A stretch of 63,946 nt of DNA, filler included, from Choristocarpus tenellus KU-1152 (lineage: Eukaryota; Protista; Phaeophyceae): assembly GCA_964200185.2 (NCBI GenBank). It is 11 parts of 11 records of this genome, joined end to end, with 100 filler letters (N's around TTAATTAATTAA, not from the genome) between each part and the next. Parts side by side here need not be neighbours in the genome. Positions count along the whole stretch, not along the records: positions 2,789 to 9,796 come from CAXNAD020006876.1; 10 more parts are not named here. One strand, written 5' to 3'. The notes under the pieces were generated by a model, which saw only the letters and a program-made list of their open reading frames with translations, did not search any database and was not told where the DNA came from. Made by a program: the position numbers and the translations under genes. Of this stretch, positions 699 through 63,946 are shown in pieces; position 1 is the stretch's first letter, and each line of letters begins with the position of its first letter.

Positions 699-968
699 TC
701 AAGAGTAGTGATTTGCACAACGGCCATCTGACAGGATTCTGAGGTACCTCCAGAGACTATTAGTACAGGATTGGTCCATTGCAAATGGATAACATTTTGT
801 CCATACAACCTCCTCCTGCTGTCTAAATAGTTGATATCCGAGGATCCAATCTAATTGGGTGGTATGTGGGTGTACATACTATGAGATAACATTATATACA
901 CCTGGGTTAACGGGAAGGGGGTGACAATATGGGTAATCATATGTCACCATCGATCTGTTTTGGATCAG

Positions 969-1260
969 GAGGATAACAAGGCAACGGAGAGAATCGCAAA
1001 CTTGGAAACAGGAGATGAGTCAGAACTTTCTCAGGTAGAAGGGGAGTCTAAGGAGATTCAGGGTGGAGGTGTGGATGTGGGCAATAAAGTAGTGAGCGAC
1101 TCTAGTAGTGCAGATCAGATGTGTCAACAAGAGCCAGCTGCCAAGGGACCCAAACTCAAGTTCTCCTCCATGAAAACTGCAGCACCTACCAACAGCAACA
1201 CAAAGCCGACTTGCTTTGATCTTAATGAAGCTCGGATATCCAAGCAGGCTCGTATTGTCG
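969..1260 (+). CDS. Internal exon of an unknown protein (acidic/low-complexity)
   Basis: Open frame EDNKATERIANLETGDESELSQ...ARISKQARIV, bounded by a TTTTGGATCAG acceptor and a GTAAG donor. No recognisable domain. Confidence 0.5.
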
Positions 1261-2211
1261 GTAAGTGTCATGTTCACCATGATGGGCAAAACTGGTATCA
1301 AAGTACCTCCTATTTCTATGTATGGTGACTGCAGTCCTATAGAGTATTCATTTTTCCTACTACAGTATACATTGCAACGTTCCTCCTGCTGCTGCCTCTG
1401 CTGCACAATATACTCAATTTGGCTTGATGTTCAATTTGCTTCAGTATAGTGTGATATCACTGATTGTATCATGAAGGCACAGTCTTCAACTACCACATGA
1501 GTCTTGTCCAACTTATACTTGCACCAGTCTACCACCACATGCCCTGCTCAATGATATGAGATACAAGAATATACAAAGGATCGATCAACCTCTTCTTCGA
1601 TTTGTTGTACCTCCAACAACCCCCCGAAATAAGAGCCCCCTTGTAACATGATGCCTACATACCATAACTTCCATTGATACACATTGCCAATATTTTCTTC
1701 TCCATTGTGCAGAGCTACGTGAGCAGATTGCAGCTCTGAGAGCAGACGATATGGGACAGAAGGGTGCAACCAAGCACACTAGTGATGTCAAGTATAAGGT
1801 GTCTACAACCTTTTCTCTGTATAACAGGCATCAGTGCACGGACTAGTGTCAACCCCTTCGTGGTGTGTCAATACTATTGAGTTTAATGTTCGAAGTAGTG
1901 TTGTTTCCCACCCTTCATAGATGTGCCTGGGATAGGAACTCCGAGCCTAAGTAAACGAGAAGTACCCAGGTTTTGCCCTTTTTTGTATTTAAAGTCTGTT
2001 TTCTAATGCCTTAAGTTCTCACCGATATTTCTATGAAGTTCTGAGTTTGACTTGACAGCGTTTATTTCTCTACTGTTTAGAACTTGTCTGGCACTTTTCA
2101 GAAAATATCCTATACGCATTTGAAAAAGAAAACCGAATTTTGTACACTCTTGTCAGCATCCAAAAGAAATACAACTCGTGTGTGCCTCTGGTTTACTTTG
2201 ACTCTGACTCT

Positions 2212-2688: not shown

Positions 2689-2788
2689 NNNNNNNNNNNN
2701 NNNNNNNNNNNNNNNNNNNNNNNNNNNNNNNNTTAATTAATTAANNNNNNNNNNNNNNNNNNNNNNNNNNNNNNNNNNNNNNNNNNNN
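2689..2788. other. Artificial contig-joining linker (N44-TTAATTAATTAA-N44); identical linkers at 9797-9896, 13146-13245, 16704-16803, 22653-22752, 26363-26462, 38077-38176, 51429-51528, 55081-55180, 61049-61148
   Basis: The same 100-nt spacer with a six-frame stop cassette occurs ten times. Separate 10-N scaffold gaps at 42741-42750 and 52451-52460. Confidence 0.97.
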
Positions 2789-2810
2789 CCCCCCTCAGAT
2801 ACTTTGGGTC
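2789..2810. mobile_element. MITE family A terminal fragment at contig start
   Basis: CCCCCCTCAGATACTTTGGGTC matches the family A TIR. Confidence 0.65.
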
Positions 2811-2830
2811 TCACTGCATATCACAGGGCT

Positions 2831-5800
2831 TCAAATTCCCCAAAATGTTGCAGGTTTTTTCGTTGGTTCTGCTGTCTTATCAATACAAGTCTTGATCATA
2901 TATTTGCCAAGCTTGATAACCAAGAACCTCCTCAGGAAACGAAGACCTGCATGCTTTTCTTTCTATCCAATTACTCTCAGTTGTACTACATGGCGTATAC
3001 ATGTATATATATGTGGTATGCAAAGATCTAAAGAATTAAGAAAAAGAAAGGACAGTTATACTATCACCATAGTGCTGCTATTCAAAACTCAATTGTTTAT
3101 TCGGGGGGGGAGGCTGCAAGAGGAAGAATGGATGCTGCTGAGTAGGGAGCTTACCGGCCAAGTCCTCTGTCTTAGCATTCTCTTCTTGGATGAGCTGCAA
3201 TAACTCTTCCTCGTTTCGTAAGGGCACTGTCAATTGCTGCAAACTCCCATCATTCCTGTTGGTAGACCCCCCTTTGTGTGGCAGTCTCTCCCAATTCCAT
3301 TTCCAGACTGGGTTTCCTGGGCCATTCTCCCTTTTCACTCCTTCCTTACCATTCCTCCTCCGTCCCCACTTCCCTGCCCCCAGAAGCCTCTCCAGTGCCT
3401 CCTCCAGAGAATGGTCAGATTTCACATCAAAGAGAGATGGCATCGGAAACAGCATCACCTCAGTCACTGCCCCCACCCCTGCCCTGGCCACTGCTGACTT
3501 CCTACCCTTTCTCAGTAATGGGGAGCTACCTGTGTCACCGGTGAGTACGATCCGGATGGCAGCCACAACATCACGGATTAGAAACCTATTTGAATGCAGC
3601 TCATCTCTGACACACTTGGGGAGTGACTGACTCAGTCCTTCAAAAAAATGGTCTACTCCCAACTGCTGTTGTTGATACCGCTCAACTAGAGTGGACCTGT
3701 TTGGAACATTGTGTTTCTCTCTCTTGTTGCCATTTTTTTCTTCTCTGCCTCTTGTGTTGTCATCTAGCGGTTTGGTAGCAAGCCTGGCTGAAACTGGACC
3801 ATTCTCCTGTTTCTCCTCATCTAAATCCCTGTACGGGTCATCGCCTATCCTTCTTGTTTTGCTATTCTTGCTCCGACTGCTGCTGTCTTCCTCCCCACCA
3901 TGTGCAGTCAACAATGGGTCTCCAACACCCCCCCATATAGAAAGGGAAATAGGTAGTACACCCTGTCCTAACACTCGGATAGGGATGACCTGAATGCCGT
4001 TCTGGACAGCCGCACACACCTCCATCAAGGACAAAGGATCCTGAAGGCATCCATCAAACATCAACCATATTAGGTTTAGTGCCTTTTTTACCTGTGTGGA
4101 TGCAACAGGGTTGAATGAGACACATTTTCAAATTAAGATTTTGGGGCTACAGTCACATATCTCACAATAGTCAAACGTCAGACTATGTTGTGTTTTGAGC
4201 TACACAGTCCATTGTCCCACCAGTGTTGCTAGTGTCGGCACAGGGTCTTCAAAGTGGGGAAGGTTTCAACCATCTGCAGTACAACAGGAGTGAATAGGCC
4301 TGACCATTTGGCAAGTAGCTCCCCTTCATAGCATGCGTAGATTGTCAGCATTTCGTCAGACGATACTTGACCACCATGGAGTACAATTTTTTTATACACT
4401 ACTTCAATGGACGACAGTGAAACAGAGGAATCACAGGTTCGATTATCAATCAGACCCAAAGTATCTGGGAGGGGGGGGGGGCGTCTACACCAGGGTGTCC
4501 ATTTGGATCAAAATCAGGAAAAGTGCTTTTACAGTATCTATCCGATGTATGCAACCAAATAACTCAAAAATCGCGACATACAAAAATTGAACCCAAATGG
4601 ACAGCCGCCACCCCCTCCCAGATACTTTGAACCATCAATCACTTGGAATGTTATCCTCCTGAAGCATGTGGGCTTTCCCTGGAGATTCAGATCTTCATAG
4701 TGCATCGAAGATGTCTTTAACTTCAGGGTAATTTGTCGCCAATAGGATATGGGGAGTTGAAGGTCTGATCTCCTACTACATAATGTATTTTACAAAGTCA
4801 GCACTGGTCAATCCTCGTGGATGAATATCTGCTTGGGTTATTATCATACTTTAACTCTCACACCTGTCCAGGCAAGACCGAATCCTAATATAGGATGTAA
4901 GGGGTTGCTAAACAGGGATGAGGGAGGTTCGCATATTCGCAATGCAGGTTCTTCTGTTGACCATGGCAGATATAAATCGACCCACCTGTGCCAAGTGTAA
5001 CTGAGGGTCAGCATCCTGACCACTCACATCTCGGAGGTACACATTCGGTAATGTGTTGTGAGGTAGTGTCCATAATGTTTGGAGGGAGTGTTGGAGACCC
5101 TTTGCAAACTTCCTTGCGGCCCGGATGAAATACATTGACTATGTGGCACAAGCAATGGTAACAGCAGGGATGTGGAGGGTGAGTCCTGCATGAATGCTGT
5201 ATGCTCAAGCTTCTTTTTTTTAGTAAACCCCAAATGCAAGAAAATGTGTATATTGTATAGTTAGCCTTAGAGCTATGGTTAGTCTAGAACTTAAGGTACA
5301 CACAGCTCCATGACTACCCTGACTAGAGATAAGCTGTTGAAAACCCAACATTAAGACTGGTCAGCAGCTACCTCTCCTGGGGCACCAACAAAACACCCCG
5401 CTGAGCGCCATCACAAATTTGACCCACTTTTCTACTGTCGCATCTTTATGGGAATACTTCGAGGTTCTCCAATTCTTTAAGGAGGAGGGAACGTCACATC
5501 AATAATAAAATCATTAGAATGTTTCTAGCAACTAGATTTCAATGAGGCATGACATGATGAGCAATAGTATGACCTTGCAAGGAGTGAGGTTGTGTTGTAA
5601 CTGACCGTAGGGAAAGAAATGTAGGCTGCGTGATGTGTCTTCAGAGCTCGTACAGCTGCGAAAGTGTAAGGACTTCCGCTCTGTTTGATCTTCTCCAGGG
5701 CTTCCTCTGTGCTCCTTCTTAGTTCGTTGAGGACATCGATAATACGATCTTGGTCAGGCTTGTTATTGATGGTGATGCGCACCAGCAATCGGCGGAGGTC

Positions 5801-6216
5801 ATCGCCATCCAGAGAACACACGATGCCCCCTCCTATGGCATTGTCTACAATCACCTTTTGGTAATTCTCAAATTTTTTACCCAATGCCTGCACCAACTGA
5901 AGGCAGCAGGAAGAGGCAAGGTAGGTGAGTGGTTCGAGTGGGAAGGCTGTCCGCTGCAACAAGTAACTCGACACAAATCTGATGGTGTTGTGATGTGTCG
6001 GGCAATCCACAACTTCCTACCAACTTTGCTACCTCGAAATCGCATCTCAAGGAGCTCATGGATTCTCTTCAAAATACAATTGAACTTGTCGTACTATTAC
6101 AACAGGTAAGTGTAATATGAAGAAAGACCGCAACAACCTCTCACCAAGGTCGCGAGGTCCGCGGGGTTCAAGTCCCGTACATCGTACCAGTTGAGGTCGC
6201 TGCGCAGATTTCCCAT
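2831..6216 (-). CDS. SAM-domain + TIR-domain protein with N-terminal myristoylation consensus; exons 6216-6145, 5896-5606, 5138-4986, 4091-3155 (or to the stop at 3078), putative last exon 2946-2831
   Basis: GT-AG introns give phase-0 in-frame joins. MGNLRS start; SAM-like LGKKFENYQKVIVDNAIGGGIVCSLDGDDLRRLLVRITINNKPDQDRIIDVLNEL; TIR-like THHAAYISF..ARKFAKGL..VYLRD..LAQVKKALNLIWLMFDGCLQDPLSLMEVCAAVQNGIQVIPIRV. Domains recognised by eye; the last exon has a weak acceptor. Confidence 0.72.
4453..4633 (+). mobile_element. MITE family A, complete copy (181 bp) in intron 3 of the SAM-TIR gene
   Basis: TIRs GACCCAAAGTATCTGGGAGGGG ... CCCCTCCCAGATACTTTGAACC; flanked by direct repeat ATCAATCA (4445-4452, 4634-4641). 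Confidence 0.92.
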
Positions 6217-6599
6217 GCCACGACAGCGAAGTTTTACGAGGGATGCACTTCTCTGTATATAGGGGAAGGGGAGACTATTTAAACGTAACAAAACTGTAAG
6301 TTGGAAGTAGTTGGTCATGAAGGTCTCGCATTTGAAATTGACAGTTACAGGAGTATTGTCAAGTTAAAAATTAGACTAGAAATGAACAGATGGAAAAAAA
6401 TAATGTACTCATGTATACCCAAGAACACAGTGGATCTTGTCAAGTAGGAGGCAAAGACATGTCACCATGGACATAAGGGAATCTACCTGTATTCATACAT
6501 GCCACTGCTCCACTGAACGCGACATCTCATTAGAGGTGGGGGGAGGAGGTCACTATAAAGGACGCAATTTATTTGTGGGTGGATTTTTTTGTGCCTTAA

Positions 6600-9000
6600 A
6601 GCATTGCCATCTCGTGTCCACAAAGCGATCATATCACACCTCTAGCCTGTGCAACTTCCTGAGCTTGCTTTGCTGCGCCCACCGCTGGTATGAAGGACTG
6701 TTTGGCATTGAATAGACTGTCTTTGCGCGCCACTCCTTCACTATCTCCAGTCGCTTACTTCCTATACATCTAGTACCTGGAGCATCCACATCTTCTGCTC
6801 TGATCTTTCGGTTATCACCTGCCTGAACGCACTCCATCCTCAACTCGTTTGTCTTGGGGCAATCATGCATGCTTACCTAATGCCATATGTTGAGAAAGCA
6901 CTCTCAATGAGTTGGTGCATTGGAAGAGAGTAGATATTCTCCATACATAACTCATAGAGTCTTGGGTGCTTCCTCACAGCATCCTTCGTTGGGTCATACT
7001 GCCTCAACTCCTCCCTCAACTGGACCTTCAGTTGCAACCAGACTAAAACACCCGAGTGTAAGCCGCTCCTTCTTCAATATCTCCAAGGCATCCCTCCACT
7101 CAGTACGAATCTGGGCGAAGTTCGCCCATATGCGCAGGGTTACCTACATGCCTAGACCACATGTTATCGCCATTGCCAAGCTCCTTGATGAAAAGAAGTG
7201 CAGCTACCCCATCTGATCCCAATGCCCGCCGATAGGTGGCTTTCCCCCGCCACTGGCCCACATAGAAAAGCAATCAAGTCTTGCTATTGTGTATGTTACC
7301 TCATGAGAGGCAGCCAGGAACTGGACACCACATCAGTTTATATGGGATCGAAATATTCGACTACAATGTGGAGTGCTACAGCTTTCTGCCCTCATGTCAT
7401 TATTTTCATTTTTTCCCGCCTTTCAGTTCAAGGGGTGATGAAATCATCTAGAGATGTGAAATCAAAGGGACGGATTGGGTCAGGTGGCTGACAAGACTCC
7501 AACAACATTGTTGGGCATTTCTAAAGGTGGGGCACCTACATCTTAATAAACGTTGCGGAATATGATCGTCCATCATGATCCTTACTTTCCTTGCTCCAAT
7601 AGGTGTTTTTGGTGATTCTATCAGAACAGTGTGAATACTGTTGTGGCAGAAAGGAGGGGAGAAATGAAGCCAATCGATGTGAGGAACAACCAACTCCATC
7701 CCAGTAGGCAGCAGCATTAGGCAAAGATAAGAGATATATTTGTTAATAGTTTTAGCACACACCCTACAAAAGGGAATACTAGCAGCAAAGAATACACTAC
7801 TTCAAAGTATGTACTGGCAATATATGATGGGTTGATGTAGATCTTTATACACTTCCACACTCAGACACATACATGCCCTCAAAAATAATACACCGATCAG
7901 CACTGCCTTGGCAGGGAAGGAACCTTTTCAAGGCAACCTCCTTACAGTCACTGCTAGCATTTTCCAGATCTTCCTTCCCTCAAGATACATTTGCCACTGC
8001 TGGAACAGTTTCCACTTAGTGTGGAGGCATCCAGTCAGCAGTGGCAACCCCATTGTTTCTTCTCATGGACCGGAAATCCAAACTCTTGAGCTCTACACAA
8101 TCATAGAAACTCATAATCCAGGGTACATTGGTTACTACAACACCACCATCCTAAATCTCTTCCAGCCAACTACACTCCTTTACACAGACGGGAAAAAACA
8201 CAACAAATTGATCGCCTTCGCAATGTTTTACGCACAAGGTGAACTGTACGGAGGAATCAGATAACACCAGCAATAATAATGCTCCCCCTCTACCTTGCAA
8301 TGGGTGTGTCAACACAACAAACTGCCTACAACGGCAGGGGCACAACGAATACGAACCCAACCTACGGTGCAACTGGTGTAGCCTAAAACAAGAGAATGTC
8401 CCATTGGCAACAAACCACCCCTCTTGCATGCAAAATCCCTTCTCTCTCTATACATATCTCCGATAATCTTTTTGGGGTCTCTGGGTCATCCTCTTCGCAA
8501 CTCGGAGAGTTCCATTCCAGGTTCACATTGCTGCGCCTCACTATCACGGTTTCTCAAAGAAACGTCCTGTGATAGATAGGTGTTTGTTAGGTTTGAGGGA
8601 GGGCAGGCAAGGGTTGTACAGAGCAAGTCAGTTTCAGACTTAGAAATGCACTTCAAGTCGCAAGCAATAGGTGACGCCACATCATTCCTGATAGCACGAG
8701 CTCACATACACACAGCTCTTGGGGGGGGCAAGAGCAGTAACTGTCTCTTCCATGAATATTAACAGTACCACACACAATTGCAATTGGCACTTGTCCCTTT
8801 ACACAACCACTACAGTGGGGCAGGTAAACGGGTCAAGCAAATGATCACAGTTTCACTAATGGCGATAAACTCTCCTCAGCTGTATCAATATCACCACCTC
8901 AGGTCAAGGCAATCCGCCAAAAGAGAAGAGGCATAGGGGGGCACCAAGCACTTCAAGTAGGACACAGTCTGGAGCAAAGCACTCTGCGCATTACACTGCC
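6600..9000 (-). pseudogene. Highly degenerate non-LTR retrotransposon reverse-transcriptase remnant
   Basis: Frameshifted RT-like motifs on the minus strand: DFTSLDDFI (~7435-7465), FCHNSIHTVLIE (cf. NAFNSIxRxxVLxE), PTGMELVV. Many stops; boundaries approximate. Confidence 0.35.
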
Positions 9001-48717: not shown

Positions 48718-48841
48718 CCTCGTCTCGTACTATCTACCACCGTCTATCCACATTCACCACTGTAGACAAACCACCTACATCACCACGGAATGAATGCACC
48801 CTTAAAAAATACCATCTTTTCCGGTAACAACTCCTCACTCC

Positions 48842-50990
48842 TCATGGGATATCTTCAAACTGGACTTTGTGGGGATCCTGGGCCGTGTGGCGGCTTGGAC
48901 CCATCTTGTTTTGGTTCAGAGCAGCTCCCACACATCCACCACCACCAACCCCACCACCACCCCCACGTCCACCTATGATGAAGACAACGATCAGCTGTTC
49001 GAAACCATCCTCAACAACGGCCTCTCTGTCTCACATGCACTCAAAGGCAATTTTGAGGAGGCCACCGAACAAAGGATGCGCACTGTCCACTGCTGGTTTG
49101 AACCCTGTTCAGGGCAAGATGAACCCGGCGAGGACCCTGACCAGTGGCTACTTCAACTCAACTGGGCCAAGGCTGAACTTGAAGGATTTGGTGAAACCAT
49201 CAGCTACTTCTACCAGCAGGCGACTCTTCTCTCCGGACTCTCTCCAGACTATGATGTTCTTCAGAACCAAGTACGGTTCCACTCAGACATCACGGAGTAG
49301 TCCCTCATCTCAGCAATTCAAGTCACCTACAAAAACGACCTAAACTTGACCGACTGTGCATCTGATGAAAACCCCAATGTTGCCCTCACTGCCTAAGCCC
49401 ACCCTTGCCGCCACTGCCACCACCCTGGCCATCAGCCGCACCAATGTCCAAATCACCAAATCACCACTATTCCACCATACCCACCTAATACATCCTCCAC
49501 TGGCATCTAGTGCTCCTATCACATGTCCCAAACACACACTTACCAAGAATGTTATGCACAGTGCCACCAGCAACACAGCCACAGGCACAGTCACACCCAT
49601 TCTTGAGCCCCCTCCAATATCCACACACACACACACACCAGCCCAACTCCTTCATCACTTAGCTCCCCCCCCATCCCTCCCATTATCTACATACACAGCC
49701 ACAGCCACAGCCACAGTCACAGCCATTCTTGCACCTTTCCGGTATCAACACCCACACCCACCCCAGCCCAATTCCGTGAACCTAGTCACCTTAGGTCCTT
49801 CAACAACCTTGGAATCCGTGACAGACAATACCACCCTGTTGACCACCCTGGTATCCTCGCTGGGCAGCCCTTCCCACCCTCTTCGAACACCCTGACATCC
49901 TTGCTGGGGGATCCTCCACAATAACCTCCCTTCCTACCCTTTAGCCCTCATTTTCCCAGGCTTTGCCGAAACCAACTCCCACGGTCACCCTCAGGTATTC
50001 CGCCTCCACAAAGCCCTCTACGGCCTTCGACAAGCCCCCCGTGCCTGGCACCAAATCCTCCACCAAACCCTTACCACCCTCGGCCTCACCCACAGCCTTG
50101 CTCATCCCTGCGTGTACATCAGAGGGGAGGCTGGGGTTATTCTTTTCGTGTACATGGACGACATGGGCATCAATGGCTGCAACTCCAGACGCATTGACAG
50201 TATGCGACATCAACTCCAATAACAGTTCGACATAGAAGACATGGGCAAAGCTGAATACATCCTCGAGATTCGACTCCTTCCGGACCTGTACGTGAATACC
50301 ATACTGGATTGCTTCGGAATGGCTAACTACAACTCATTGGCGACGCGTGCAAACCATCATGAACTAGGCCCGTCAACCTGACTCTCCACTACCACCCCTC
50401 GACAAACACCACTGCCAAACCCCAGTTGGCATTTTACTCTCGACATTTTCCATATGCTGTAATACAACTTGGTACATGACCCCCCCCTCACAGCTTCACT
50501 GGATTGCTGCCAAGCGTGTTCTGCGCTACCTCCAGGGTGCCCCTGGCTTTGCCCTTGGACACTGTGCCACCCTGTCCGATTTCATCGCTCAGCACAGCTA
50601 TGCAGACGCCAGCTACGCCAGTGATCCAGTAACTTGGTCAAGAAAGAAACAGTCCACCATCGCCCTGTTCAGCACCGAAAGTGAGAGTCATGCTCCCAGC
50701 TTTGTAGCTCAGGAATCTCACTATCATCGCAGTCTGCTGTCGTCTCTGGGATTTGATGCCAAGAACCCCCTCACTATTCATGAGGATAACCAGGGCGCCA
50801 TTCACTTGGCCAACAACTTAACCTACAGCCTTGCGACCAAGCATGTTGGCGTTCGTCTTGCCTTCCTCAGAGAACCTGTTACTGCCGGGCCCATCCCGGT
50901 TGTAGACATCTGCACCAACCTTCACTTCCTCATACCCTCACCAAGAACCTACCGTAAGTACGCTTCCATCTGAACCTCATGTAACCTCAC
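48842..50990 (+). mobile_element. Degenerate Ty1/copia retrotransposon (gag, RT, RNase H remnants)
   Basis: gag-like GEDPDQWLLQL..LEGFGETIS..LLSGLSPDY; RT LHKALYGLRQAPRAW...FVYMDD (~50000-50170); RNase H WSRKKQSTIALFSTESE...EDNQGAIHLA..TKHVGVR. Confidence 0.88.
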
Positions 50991-51542: not shown

Positions 51543-51720
51543 GGGTCAAAGTATCTGGAGGGGGGTGGCGGCTGTCCATTTGGGGTCAATTTTTTCATGT
51601 CGCCATTTTTGGGTGATTTAGTTGCATACGTCGGATGGATAATGTAAGTGCACTTTTCATGGTTTTTGCCCAAATTGACACCCTGGTGTAGACCCCTCCC
51701 CCCCCCAGATACTTTGGGTC
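51543..51720 (-). mobile_element. MITE family A, complete copy (178 bp)
   Basis: GGGTCAAAGTATCTGG ... CCAGATACTTTGGGTC. Confidence 0.92.
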
Positions 51721-52382
51721 TACATTGGGGGTATGTGATGAAGCCCTGAACATTAGGGTCAACACTCATTAGGGATATGCTCTGGGTATAATAGGGGAAT
51801 ATTATGTAAATATATATATATATTATATATATAGTGAAAATATATATACTTCAAAGCAAGCCTATTACTCCAGAATTTATCACATGTAATGGAGAAAACC
51901 TCAACATCTGATTACTGATATGTGAGCAAGCTTCTTTTATGAAGATCCTGATTTTTTGTTTATTTCATTTTCCAGTAGAAGACTCCAGTAAATCGCTACT
52001 GCTTGTGAAGGGGTCTGGCTGTGACTATGAGGGTTCAAAACTGAAAACCCCCCTGCCAGTCATAGGTTAAGGTTTGTTGCTAGTATCAATTACTATGTTC
52101 ACAAACTCGGGGATGTATGCAATTAACTAATCCAGAGTGAACAGAGTTGGATCATCATATTTGTGAATAACCAAAATCAACTACCGGCTTGTTTTTTTTT
52201 CTGCTTGACCCTCACAACCACTGGGGAGCGTTCAACCCAGTCAATGGATGCAGAGTATGATTAAACCAGTTTAGCAGGATTCAAAGATGCTTCTGTAAAA
52301 CGAAAGTAATTTTGAGTGCAGTTCTACTGTAGGTGAATATGGTTGCACAGCTTCTTTGGAGCATATCATATGCCAAACCCCA

Positions 52383-53700: not shown

Positions 53701-54863
53701 GGATGCTAAGAAGGGAAACTGCCACCTGGAGACTGGAGGAATCAATTCGTCACAACAGTGTGGAGTCACAATTATATTTCCTAAGATTGGGATTCAAAGC
53801 GGCGGAGCAAACTCAACAGAACCGCCAAAATAACCTAGTCTCGAAATATACCAGTTGTACAATCTGTTTCTCATTTCTTACTACTTCGATTTCATCATAA
53901 AATAGAACATGTACTTCATTCAATGTACAGGAGGGTCTTTTTTTTTCATAATTCTACTACTATCTACTTTGTATTTTATACTACTTCAAGTCGAAAACAA
54001 TTCAAACTATATGTCGTCTACTTCTGTTTTGTTTGTGCATGTTCTCTTCTGTGGACCTTCTCTCATCTATTCCGTCAAGAACATCTGCGATCTTGAAATA
54101 AAATACCAAAAACTAAGTATTGTATAAAAGGTAATGGGAAATCCCTCTTCTCAAACTCCCAATCACATATTTTCTTTTCATAGCATTTCTTGACCAAAAC
54201 TTTGGTAAATAATTTATCTCAGATATGGAGCATGGAGGATGGTTATGCTTCTGATTGTGGAAAAAGATTACATAATTTAATTTTCAAGTCCGATTCTTCG
54301 CTTTGTGGATAGACAGAATTCTTTCTATTCATTCGAATCAATGGGATAATTTCCAGTCGATTATTAAAGTACTCATACATTTTTCGTATTCACATTAAAA
54401 ACACTTTATTCTTCCAATCATGGCACTTGTGTTACGCAGTGAATTATGAGGACGCCTACCTTACATGACACATGGCACTTCTGTATTACATTGCTTCCCT
54501 ACTACTTGAGCTCCTTGAGGAGATATTGATGAGGGAGGCAATGTTTTCAGAACTATTCATTTCTAGGCAATGTTGCCAATGGGGGTATCATATCCTCTCA
54601 AGGAGTAGTCACGACACAGATAGAGACAGCGTCTAGCCGCCCTTACACTCTTTCTGTGTCTTCCCCTCCTCTCCCTCTCTGCCCCATCTTTAACATTGTG
54701 TGCCTTCTAGATATCCCAGTCAACAACTACTGCGTGTTTTCCAATACCTTCTGGAGGTGTCAATTGGATTATGTGTCACATATTTAAGCCTGGAGTTCAG
54801 CATTCAAAGTGCTTCCTCGTGTATGTCCTACCTCCAAAAAAGGCTGCAAGTAGGATAAAATAT

Positions 54864-55080
54864 GGTCCAAAGCATCTGGGGTGGGGTGGTGGCTGTCCAT
54901 TTGGGGTCAATTTTTTCATGTCGTGATTTTTGGGAGATTTGGTTGCATATGTCGGAAGGATAATGTAAATGCACTTTTCCTGATTTTGACCGAAATGGAC
55001 ACCCTGGTCTCAGCCCCCCCCCCGCCCCCCCCCCCCCCCCCCCTCCCCCCCCTCCCCCACTCAACCCACCAAACCCCCCC
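54864..55080 (-). mobile_element. MITE family A copy, broken at the poly-C tract by the contig end
   Basis: GGTCCAAAGCATCTGG..GGCTGTCCATTTGGGG...AAATGGACACCCTGG then poly-C. Confidence 0.85.
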
Positions 55081-63836: not shown

Positions 63837-63946
63837 GGCTCAAAGTGTCTGGGGGGGGTGGCGGCTGTCCATTTGGGGCCAATTTTTTCATGTCGCGATT
63901 TTTGGGTGATTGGGTTCCATAAGTCGGATGGATAATGAAAGTGCAC
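63837..63946 (-). mobile_element. MITE family A copy, truncated by window end
   Basis: GGCTCAAAGTGTCTGGGGGGGGTGGCGGCTGTCCATTTGGGGCC... Confidence 0.88.

What the first reader, a model, noticed from the sequence alone, without database searches (positions are those of the whole stretch)
2831..6216. Putative myristoylated SAM-TIR (SARM1-like architecture) immune/NADase protein in an alga-like genome
Seen: four or five exons splice in frame to MGNLRS..., a SAM-like segment, a short helix, then a TIR-like segment with a Glu in PLSLMEVCAA. The TIR is followed by a long charged low-complexity insert and further helices (FFEGLSQSLPKCVRDELHS..DVVAAIRIVL). The ORF track splits this into unrelated ORFs, so it is easy to miss. 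Established: MGxxxS is the N-myristoylation consensus; SAM-driven oligomerisation activates the TIR NADase of animal SARM1; enzymatic TIRs need a conserved Glu. Inference: a membrane-anchored, ARM-less SAM-TIR could be an independently assembled oligomerisation-activated signalling or cell-death module. I do not know of a characterised example in brown algae.
Basis: partly seen in the sequence, partly recalled or inferred. Interest (0 to 1): 0.78.

Follow-up and report, generated by a model that had tools for sequence, protein, structure and literature searches.

The report
Brown-algal membrane SAM-TIR-ARM signalling protein
This is the front part of a conserved brown-seaweed gene whose protein likely carries a fatty membrane anchor, a SAM clustering domain and a divergent TIR domain, and, judging from a kelp relative, likely continues into armadillo-like repeats and an endocytosis (EH) domain, so it would combine the building blocks of the animal axon-death enzyme SARM1 in a new order, although enzyme activity is untested.

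Summary
Four phase-0 GT-AG exons on a 7-kb contig (identical to an NCBI partial protein of Choristocarpus tenellus) splice into an open frame. Exons 1+2 are 66/121 identical to an Undaria pinnatifida model that also starts MGxxxS, and exon 4 has 16 homologous clusters. SAM and TIR are below Pfam cut-offs. Profiles I built from bacterial domains support TIR well (probability 94%, E 1.5e-7) and SAM more weakly. Glu196 falls in the conserved TIR Glu column and is present in 18 of 18 homologues that cover it. 'ARM-less' is probably wrong: exon 4 ends at a likely conserved donor (3155/3154), the contig stops inside that intron, and the Undaria model continues into ARM-like repeats, a coiled coil and an EH domain. 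Weak points: no RNA data, exon 3 is missing from the Undaria model and adds no significant profile score, the active-site Trp is absent, both structure models were too poor for a fold match, and the C-terminal domains rest on one gene model. Verdict: an apparently undescribed TIR architecture (myristoyl-SAM-TIR-ARM-coiled coil-EH), not a SARM1 orthologue. NADase activity about 40%.

The parts
6145..6216 (-). Exon 1 (residues 1-24): MGxxxS N-myristoylation-type start and first helix of the SAM-like domain
   Evidence: 50% identical to the Undaria N-terminus, which also starts Met-Gly-x-x-x-Ser
5606..5896 (-). Exon 2 (residues 25-121): rest of the SAM-like domain (to about 5711), a linker helix, and the likely TIR betaA strand (about 5626-5609)
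   Evidence: tblastn 53% identity, E 4.8e-28 to the Undaria model; SAM HMM 15.0 bits against a maximum of 8.0 in 1000 shuffles; Atlas SAM lead 0.86. The betaA label is by eye, from the recalled TIR consensus
4986..5138 (-). Candidate exon 3 (residues 122-172): would supply TIR alphaA, betaB, BB loop and alphaB
   Evidence: Phase 0/0, open, GC 0.49 against 0.42-0.43 in the flanking introns, ACTCAC upstream of the acceptor as in exon 2. Profile support not significant. Absent from the Undaria model
3155..4091 (-). Exon 4 (residues 173-484): TIR betaC-alphaC-betaD, a variable charged insert (about 3926-3660), a conserved helical block (3659-3537), and a conserved WNWE...DLAG linker (3299-3155)
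   Evidence: 16 homologous clusters; conservation line; profile-profile match to TIR_2, probability 93.9
4020..4022 (-). Codon of Glu196, in the conserved TIR Glu column
   Evidence: Glu in 18 of 18 homologues that cover the motif
2789..3154 (-). Start of likely intron 4 (phase-1 donor GTAAG); the contig ends inside it. The read-through stop at 3080-3078 lies here
   Evidence: the Undaria model splices on at the same point
4452..4634 (.). MITE-like repeat with terminal inverted repeats in intron 3; very high copy number; part of another copy lies at the contig end (2811-2789)
6253..6280 (-). Pyrimidine-rich AG 36 nt upstream of the ATG and in frame with it: a possible 5'-UTR intron acceptor or, less likely, the join to an upstream coding exon
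   Evidence: the Undaria model starts at the equivalent Met
2689..2788 (.). 100-base N spacer with a TTAATTAATTAA linker: an artificial join. DNA at 1-2688 is a separate contig
   Evidence: the 7008-bp segment 2789-9796 equals the contig length recorded for P0001

Best explanation
The window holds the 5' part of a conserved brown-algal gene for a likely myristoylated SAM-TIR protein that likely continues, off the contig, into ARM-like repeats, a coiled coil and an EH domain, and that would act as a membrane-bound, clustering-gated TIR signalling switch. Shown: the exon chain, conservation of exons 1, 2 and 4, the Gly2/Ser6 start in two distant brown algae, TIR_2-type homology with the Glu in the catalytic column, and the C-terminal domains in one Undaria gene model. 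Inferred: myristate anchors the protein to a membrane; the EH domain recruits it to NPF-bearing endocytic proteins; the SAM domain and coiled coil cluster the TIR domains; the ARM-like repeats and the conserved linker hold the TIR off until a trigger; the clustered TIR cleaves NAD+ through Glu196 to give a local signal. A role in defence is plausible by analogy only.
For: Open four-exon frame with canonical sites. Undaria model P0018: 66/121 ungapped identity over exons 1+2, MGATAS start. 16 homologous clusters of exon 4, 15 of them at E <= 1e-10. TIR: family profile against 67 bacterial TIR_2 domains gives probability 93.9, E 1.5e-7, score 41.1 against a maximum of 17.0 in 100 column shuffles; weak Pfam TIR_2 hits at the same place in 9 of 16 homologues; Atlas TIR_2 cluster at 0.90. 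Glu196 aligns with the column that is Glu in 23 of 25 rows, and that profile finds AbTIR at E 1e-25 and SARM1 at E about 5e-10. SAM: 15.0 bits against a shuffle maximum of 8.0; 9 of the 10 best named Atlas hits share the SAM family or clan. Continuation: in 18 of 18 read-through ORFs the two residues after [DE]LA fit an N|GT-R donor (inferred from residues, DNA not seen). ARM_LRRK2 E 0.0031 on the isolated region; EPS15 EH domain E 1.6e-4. In SARM1, SAM domains drive octamers, ARM autoinhibits and E642 is catalytic (PMC8266388 passages; PMC7688312 abstract).
Against: All SAM, TIR and ARM Pfam hits are below cut-off, and no window piece hit TIR_2. The Undaria SAM region scores only 0.8 bits on my SAM HMM, and the SAM profile-profile probability is 42%. 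Exon 3 adds nothing significant: HH score 41.1 with and 40.1 without it, 95 of 100 shuffles reach it; 69 and 115 of 1000 in two HMM tests. The only full-length model lacks exon 3; if that is real, the BB loop is missing and the TIR cannot be an enzyme. The Glu-4 position is never Trp in 13 homologue rows (Phe 8, Leu 2, Tyr, Ser, Val) and is Leu here; SARM1 W638 and BB-loop residues matter for activity. The Glu is one of 31 invariant columns, so its conservation is not special. The two ARM-like repeats resemble each other only weakly (83 of 2000 shuffles reach the score). ARM, coiled coil and EH rest on a single, C-terminally cut gene model that could join two genes.
Confidence: 0.42

Rival explanations
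1. Same gene and architecture, but the TIR is a non-enzymatic interaction module, and the protein is a membrane-trafficking or receptor-adaptor scaffold that links endocytic NPF proteins to TIR- or SAM-bearing partners.
For: No Trp at Glu-4, short and divergent BB-loop region, large inserts after betaD; the Undaria model lacks the alphaA-betaB-alphaB exon; EH domain and coiled coil are trafficking-scaffold parts; many TIR domains are adaptors (established knowledge: MyD88, TRAM).
Against: Glu kept in 18 of 18 covering homologues; Phe or Tyr at Glu-4 is also common among bacterial TIR_2 domains (9 of 25 rows).
Confidence: 0.35
2. The Undaria model is a chimera. The SAM-TIR gene continues past DLAG but with a different C-terminus, and the EH domain (or ARM and EH) belongs to a neighbouring gene.
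For: Only one full-length model was found; it is cut mid-EH and already disagrees at exon 3; no transcript was seen.
Against: An ORF holding the second ARM-like repeat (P0019) is recorded with the same contig count and longest contig (3; 19,242 bp) as the Undaria exon-4 ORF, which fits close linkage; the linker helix runs straight into the first repeat.
Confidence: 0.13
3. One reading: a stand-alone, ARM-less SAM-TIR of 509 aa that ends at the stop at 3078 and is active by default or controlled in trans.
For: The frame is open to that stop; ARM-less SAM-TIR isoforms exist in animals (C. elegans TIR-1b, PMC10121217 passages).
Against: Similarity to every homologue ends at DLAG, at a consensus donor; NCBI marks its model partial; the Undaria model continues.
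Confidence: 0.05
4. A real conserved gene, but the SAM and/or TIR labels are chance resemblances of an unrelated alpha/beta and helical protein.
For: No curated-threshold hit; no PDB sequence hit for exon 2, exon 4 or the family profile.
Against: Three partly independent methods point to TIR_2 at the same residues and three to SAM, with shuffle and cross-family controls.
Confidence: 0.05

Closest known systems
SARM1 / C. elegans TIR-1 (ARM-SAM-SAM-TIR NAD+ hydrolase)
   Same: The same three domain types appear (SAM, TIR with a Glu in the catalytic column, ARM-like repeats in the Undaria model), with SAM directly before TIR.
   Different: Order is SAM-TIR-ARM; one SAM, not two; about two LRRK2-like ARM repeats; extra coiled coil and EH domain; MGxxxS start; long inserts in the TIR; no Trp at Glu-4; betaC-alphaC loop too short for the SARM1 SS loop; no sequence hit to SARM1 chains in the PDB.
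TIR_2 family (PF13676), including bacterial TIR NADases such as AbTIR and unnamed haptophyte TIR-like clusters
   Same: betaC-alphaC-betaD matches the TIR_2 profile with the Glu in register; the nearest Atlas clusters are haptophyte hypothetical proteins and a cluster with 42% TIR_2 members.
   Different: Scores are below the Pfam cut-off; the N-terminal half is poorly matched; about 90 residues of variable insert and a family-specific helical block follow betaD.
EH-domain endocytic adaptors (EPS15, plant AtEH/Pan1)
   Same: The last 49 residues of the Undaria model match the EPS15 EH domain (E 1.6e-4), after a long coiled coil.
   Different: EH is C-terminal and cut off in the model; these adaptors carry no SAM or TIR (recalled).
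TRAM/TICAM2 (myristoylated TIR adaptor; recalled, no call)
   Same: N-myristoylated TIR protein linked to endosomal signalling.
   Different: TIR-only, non-enzymatic, vertebrate; no SAM, ARM or EH.

Membership tests
SARM1/TIR-1 orthologues | Domain order ARM-SAM-SAM-TIR | tested here: not met
   Window and Undaria model give SAM-TIR then ARM-like repeats; the Met start precedes SAM in both
SARM1/TIR-1 orthologues | Two tandem SAM domains | tested here: not met
   Only about 115 residues precede the TIR; one SAM match
SARM1/TIR-1 orthologues | SS loop (SARM1 622-635) and W638 before the catalytic Glu | tested here: not met
   About 9 residues between betaC and Glu-4, like ordinary TIR_2; Glu-4 is Leu here and never Trp in 13 homologue rows; SARM1 numbering from PMC8266388 passages
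SARM1/TIR-1 orthologues | SAM-driven oligomer and ARM autoinhibition | not testable with these tools
   Needs biochemistry or structure
TIR domain superfamily (TIR_2) | Profile homology to TIR_2 | tested here: met
   hhalign probability 93.9, E 1.5e-7, shuffle maximum 17.0 against 41.1; Pfam hits weak and below cut-off
TIR domain superfamily (TIR_2) | Complete five-stranded TIR fold including alphaA, betaB and BB loop | tested here: inconclusive
   Depends on exon 3; AlphaFold2 models of exon-3-less sequences were low confidence and fold searches were uninformative
Enzymatic TIR (NADase) | Glu in the alphaC catalytic position | tested here: met
   Sequence alignment to the conserved Glu column; no residue-level structural superposition on SARM1 E642 was obtained
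Enzymatic TIR (NADase) | Glu-dependent NAD+ cleavage on self-association | not testable with these tools
   Needs an assay
SAM domain | Profile match over the five-helix domain | tested here: inconclusive
   Significant over about 32 central residues for the window and Atlas lead 0.86, but Undaria scores 0.8 bits and hhalign probability is 42%
N-myristoylated proteins | Met-Gly start with Ser at position 6 | tested here: met
   Both the window and the Undaria model, with positions 3-5 differing; the consensus itself is established knowledge; the modification is untested and an in-frame acceptor lies 36 nt upstream
Armadillo (LRRK2-type) repeats | Tandem repeats of about 42 residues matching an ARM profile | tested here: inconclusive
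   Undaria only: PF23744 E 0.0031, 16.3 bits, cut-off 26.2; period 45 and 42, weak self-similarity; not in the window
EH domain | Two EF-hands with the NPF-binding Trp | tested here: inconclusive
   Undaria only: first half matches EPS15 EH and ends at the aligned Trp; the model is cut there

The most novel reading that the evidence does not exclude
Brown algae independently built a SARM1-like switch from the same parts in another order: a myristoylated SAM-TIR NADase restrained by C-terminal ARM repeats and parked at endocytic sites by an EH domain, which couples membrane uptake (for example of a virus or oomycete parasite) to NAD+-derived signalling or cell death.
Probability: 0.2. Interest if true: 0.82.

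Novelty: new variant of a known kind. Interest (0 to 1): 0.52.

Why it matters
Brown algae evolved multicellularity separately from plants and animals, and their immune signalling is known mainly from candidate receptors (ROCO, NB-ARC-TPR). This family falls below Pfam thresholds, so domain surveys would miss it, yet it is kept between Choristocarpus and kelp. If the TIR is active it gives a testable NAD+-signalling or cell-death effector in brown algae and a natural permutation of SARM1's parts, tied to endocytosis. If it is inactive it is still a TIR architecture that my searches did not find in print.

Tried and rejected
RNA evidence: no RNA holder was listed; the two holders are contig sets that match the window letter for letter outside the repeat, may be its source, and end at the same contig end. 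No genome assembly is held. Pfam on 6 and 8 window pieces gave no SAM_1, SAM_2 or TIR hit. PDB sequence searches with exon 2, the TIR part of exon 4, the family profile and P0019 gave only chance hits. A word-based search with exon 2 for longer proteins found nothing among 405 candidates; one with P0018 found only two single-exon ORFs among 7992 candidates. No related loci in metagenome contigs or prokaryote genomes. AlphaFold2 of P0018 (pLDDT 56.9) predicted beta-alpha-beta at the TIR core, but fold searches returned only small Rossmann-like fragments at E > 0.5 and coiled coils; the exon-4 model was poor (pLDDT 48.2, best Z 3.8). The SAM homodimer prediction gave no answer. A weak tblastn match of the Undaria ARM region at 1828-1793 (E 43) was rejected: it is on another contig and opposite a plus-strand exon-like frame. 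Candidate fifth exons in 3154-2789 were rejected. Of 8 candidate phase-0 exons of 25-80 aa between exons 2 and 4, the profile score could not single out mine; it ranked fifth, and three of the four above it share its acceptor at 5138, so its donor is also uncertain. An insert-free alignment did not settle which C-terminal segments are alphaD, betaE and alphaE. Earlier scan findings: six look-ups, nothing relevant.
Full report
Source and layout. The window is a chain of short contigs joined by 100-base N spacers. The finding lies on a 7008-bp contig (2789-9796). A search with exon 4 returned one protein, P0001, an NCBI 'unnamed protein product, partial' of Choristocarpus tenellus recorded on a 7008-bp contig. 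It is identical to exon 4 apart from a 14-residue gap and a few intron-derived residues at its start. The window is therefore brown-algal, most likely that species (Phaeophyceae). That public model covers exon 4 only and carries no Pfam domain.

Observation. Exons 6216-6145, 5896-5606, 5138-4986 and 4091 onward have GT-AG borders, are all phase 0, and join without a stop. Exon GC is 0.49-0.60 against 0.40-0.46 in the intron stretches outside the MITE. No RNA run was listed, so splicing is judged from homology.

The gene is conserved. phmmer of exon 4 against 1.84 billion representatives gave 17 hits at E <= 0.001: P0001 and 16 others. These 16 look like single-exon ORFs; all 16 were looked up and are unnamed Logan or ENA records, so their species are unknown and 'brown-algal family' rests on two named species plus shared intron positions. 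One cluster holds P0018, a 735-aa Undaria pinnatifida gene model. It matches exons 1 and 2 at 66 of 121 positions without gaps and starts MGATAS, so Gly2 and Ser6 are kept while positions 3-5 differ. An in-frame AG 36 nt upstream of the ATG leaves a small chance of an upstream coding exon, but the Undaria model starts at the same Met.

The gene does not end in the window. All similarity stops at DLAG, where the window reads GCCG then GTAAG (3155/3154). In 18 of 18 read-through ORFs that reach this point, the next two residues are those an N|GT-R donor would give (Gly, Ser or Arg, then Glu, Lys, Gly, Arg or Ser; two of the 18 duplicate a cluster already counted, and I saw no DNA). P0018 splices on into an ARM-like region (PF23744, E 0.17 in the whole protein, 0.0031 alone, below cut-off), a long predicted coiled coil and the first half of an EH domain (EPS15, E 1.6e-4). 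No such exon lies in the remaining 366 bp, and both contig sets laid on the region start at the same contig end, beside a MITE end. 'ARM-less' is therefore most likely an artefact of the contig break. The C-terminal domains rest on this one model.

TIR. No window piece hits Pfam TIR_2, but 9 of 16 homologues do, weakly and at the same place (E 0.0055-0.24), as do P0018 and 2 of 4 further proteins. The Atlas puts exon 4 residues 1-190 next to haptophyte hypothetical proteins (0.93) and a cluster with 42% TIR_2 members (0.90). I collected bacterial TIR_2 and SAM_1 domains and used 67 TIR_2 matches picked by hand from those given as loci (weak or partial ones and several near-duplicate cyanobacterial tandem domains left out) and 28 of 29 SAM_1 loci. 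The family profile matches the TIR_2 profile at probability 93.9, E 1.5e-7, score 41.1; 100 column shuffles reach at most 17.0 and cross-family controls 9-15. Glu196 sits in the column that is Glu in 23 of 25 rows of a mixed alignment. That profile finds AbTIR, with its WxxxE motif in this column, and SARM1 chains (the SARM1 alignment itself was not printed). Glu is present in 18 of 21 fetched homologues; the other three do not cover the region.

Against an enzyme. The Glu lies in a block of invariant residues (31 invariant columns). Position Glu-4 is never Trp (13 rows) and is Leu here. The betaC-alphaC loop is short. SARM1 needs W638 and BB-loop residues D594 and G601 for full activity (PMC8266388 passages). 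The BB loop would come from exon 3, which the Undaria model lacks. Exon 3 fits the TIR pattern by eye and has exon-like GC and an acceptor like exon 2's, but it adds no significant profile score (41.1 with, 40.1 without, 95 of 100 shuffles reach it; 69 and 115 of 1000). I put exon 3 at about 75% real and NADase activity at about 40%; both are judgements.

SAM. The Atlas gives SAM clusters at 0.86, with 9 of the 10 best named hits in one family or clan; Pfam gives a SAM-like family at E 0.18. My SAM HMM scores residues 1-100 at 15.0 bits against a maximum of 8.0 in 1000 shuffles, over residues 33-64. The Undaria protein scores 0.8 bits and the profile-profile probability is 42% (score 24.4, shuffle maximum 19.7). 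SAM is likely, not proven.

Structure. AlphaFold2 could only be given sequences without exon 3. The P0018 model has strand-helix-strand at the TIR core with pLDDT 70-90, but overall confidence is low and no fold search was informative.

Mechanism. The most likely reading is a lipid-anchored scaffold at endocytic membranes in which SAM and coiled coil cluster the TIR, and the ARM-like repeats with the conserved WNWE...DLAG linker restrain it, by analogy with SARM1, where SAM octamers and ARM autoinhibition control the NADase (PMC8266388 passages; PMC7688312 abstract). Every step after the domain list is inferred. The close rival is the same architecture with a non-catalytic TIR.

Known or new. 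It is not a SARM1 orthologue by domain order, SAM number or active-site loop. SARM1 homologues with the Glu are reported in choanoflagellates, as are TIR proteins with ARM or ankyrin domains (PMC6040629 passages), and ARM-less SAM-TIR occurs as C. elegans TIR-1b (PMC10121217 passages), so SAM-TIR and TIR-with-ARM pairings are not new in themselves. Eight literature searches bearing on algal or myristoylated TIR proteins (seen as listings) showed no paper on a brown-algal SAM-TIR or a SAM-TIR-ARM-EH protein. A brown-algal ROCO paper mentions TIR only in other organisms (PMC11378527 passages). PMC10197012, PMC12993054 and PMC3410857 (passages) added nothing on this. The library lacks most subscription papers, and I opened no supplements; domain tables of the brown-algal genome papers could list this gene.

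Verdict. A real, conserved, partly annotated gene with a probably new TIR architecture. Interest 0.52.

Noticed in passing
window 4452-4634; copies near 45-208, 12822-12938, 16506-16682, 35084-35244, 51543-51721, 54863-55031, 63837-63946: A roughly 180-bp MITE-like family with terminal inverted repeats and extremely high read depth; several copies or ends sit at contig ends, which likely explains the fragmented assembly.
   Followed up: partly
whole window: The window is a concatenation of 11 contigs of 2.7-13 kb joined by ten 100-base N spacers with a TTAATTAATTAA linker, plus two 10-N gaps; neighbours across spacers need not be linked.
   Followed up: yes
window 37534-38076 (-): 3' exon of a fatty-acid desaturase (PF00487, E 2.9e-18), cut by a contig end.
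   Followed up: partly
window about 3789-3689 (-): The NCBI model P0001 lacks 14 residues (42 nt) here relative to the window's frame; such a short intron may be a prediction artefact or a real in-frame micro-intron within the variable insert.
   Followed up: no
window 885-1846 (+): Two exon-like plus-strand frames (ending at GT donors near 1260 and 1798) on the neighbouring contig; no Pfam hit for the first.
   Followed up: partly
window 6634-7143 (-): Three short stop-bounded frames upstream of the gene that read like one decayed, frameshifted coding sequence, possibly a transposon remnant; no Pfam hit.
   Followed up: partly
window 48806-50973: GC-rich region with frames that look by eye like a decayed copia-type retrotransposon (RNase H-like end at 50368-50973); no Pfam hit at E 0.01; label recalled.
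   Followed up: partly
exon 4, window 3299-3155, and homologues P0002-P0022: The WNWE...P..R.EE..ELI..E..DLAG linker after the TIR is as conserved as the TIR core but matches no family; it is a candidate regulatory element.
   Followed up: partly
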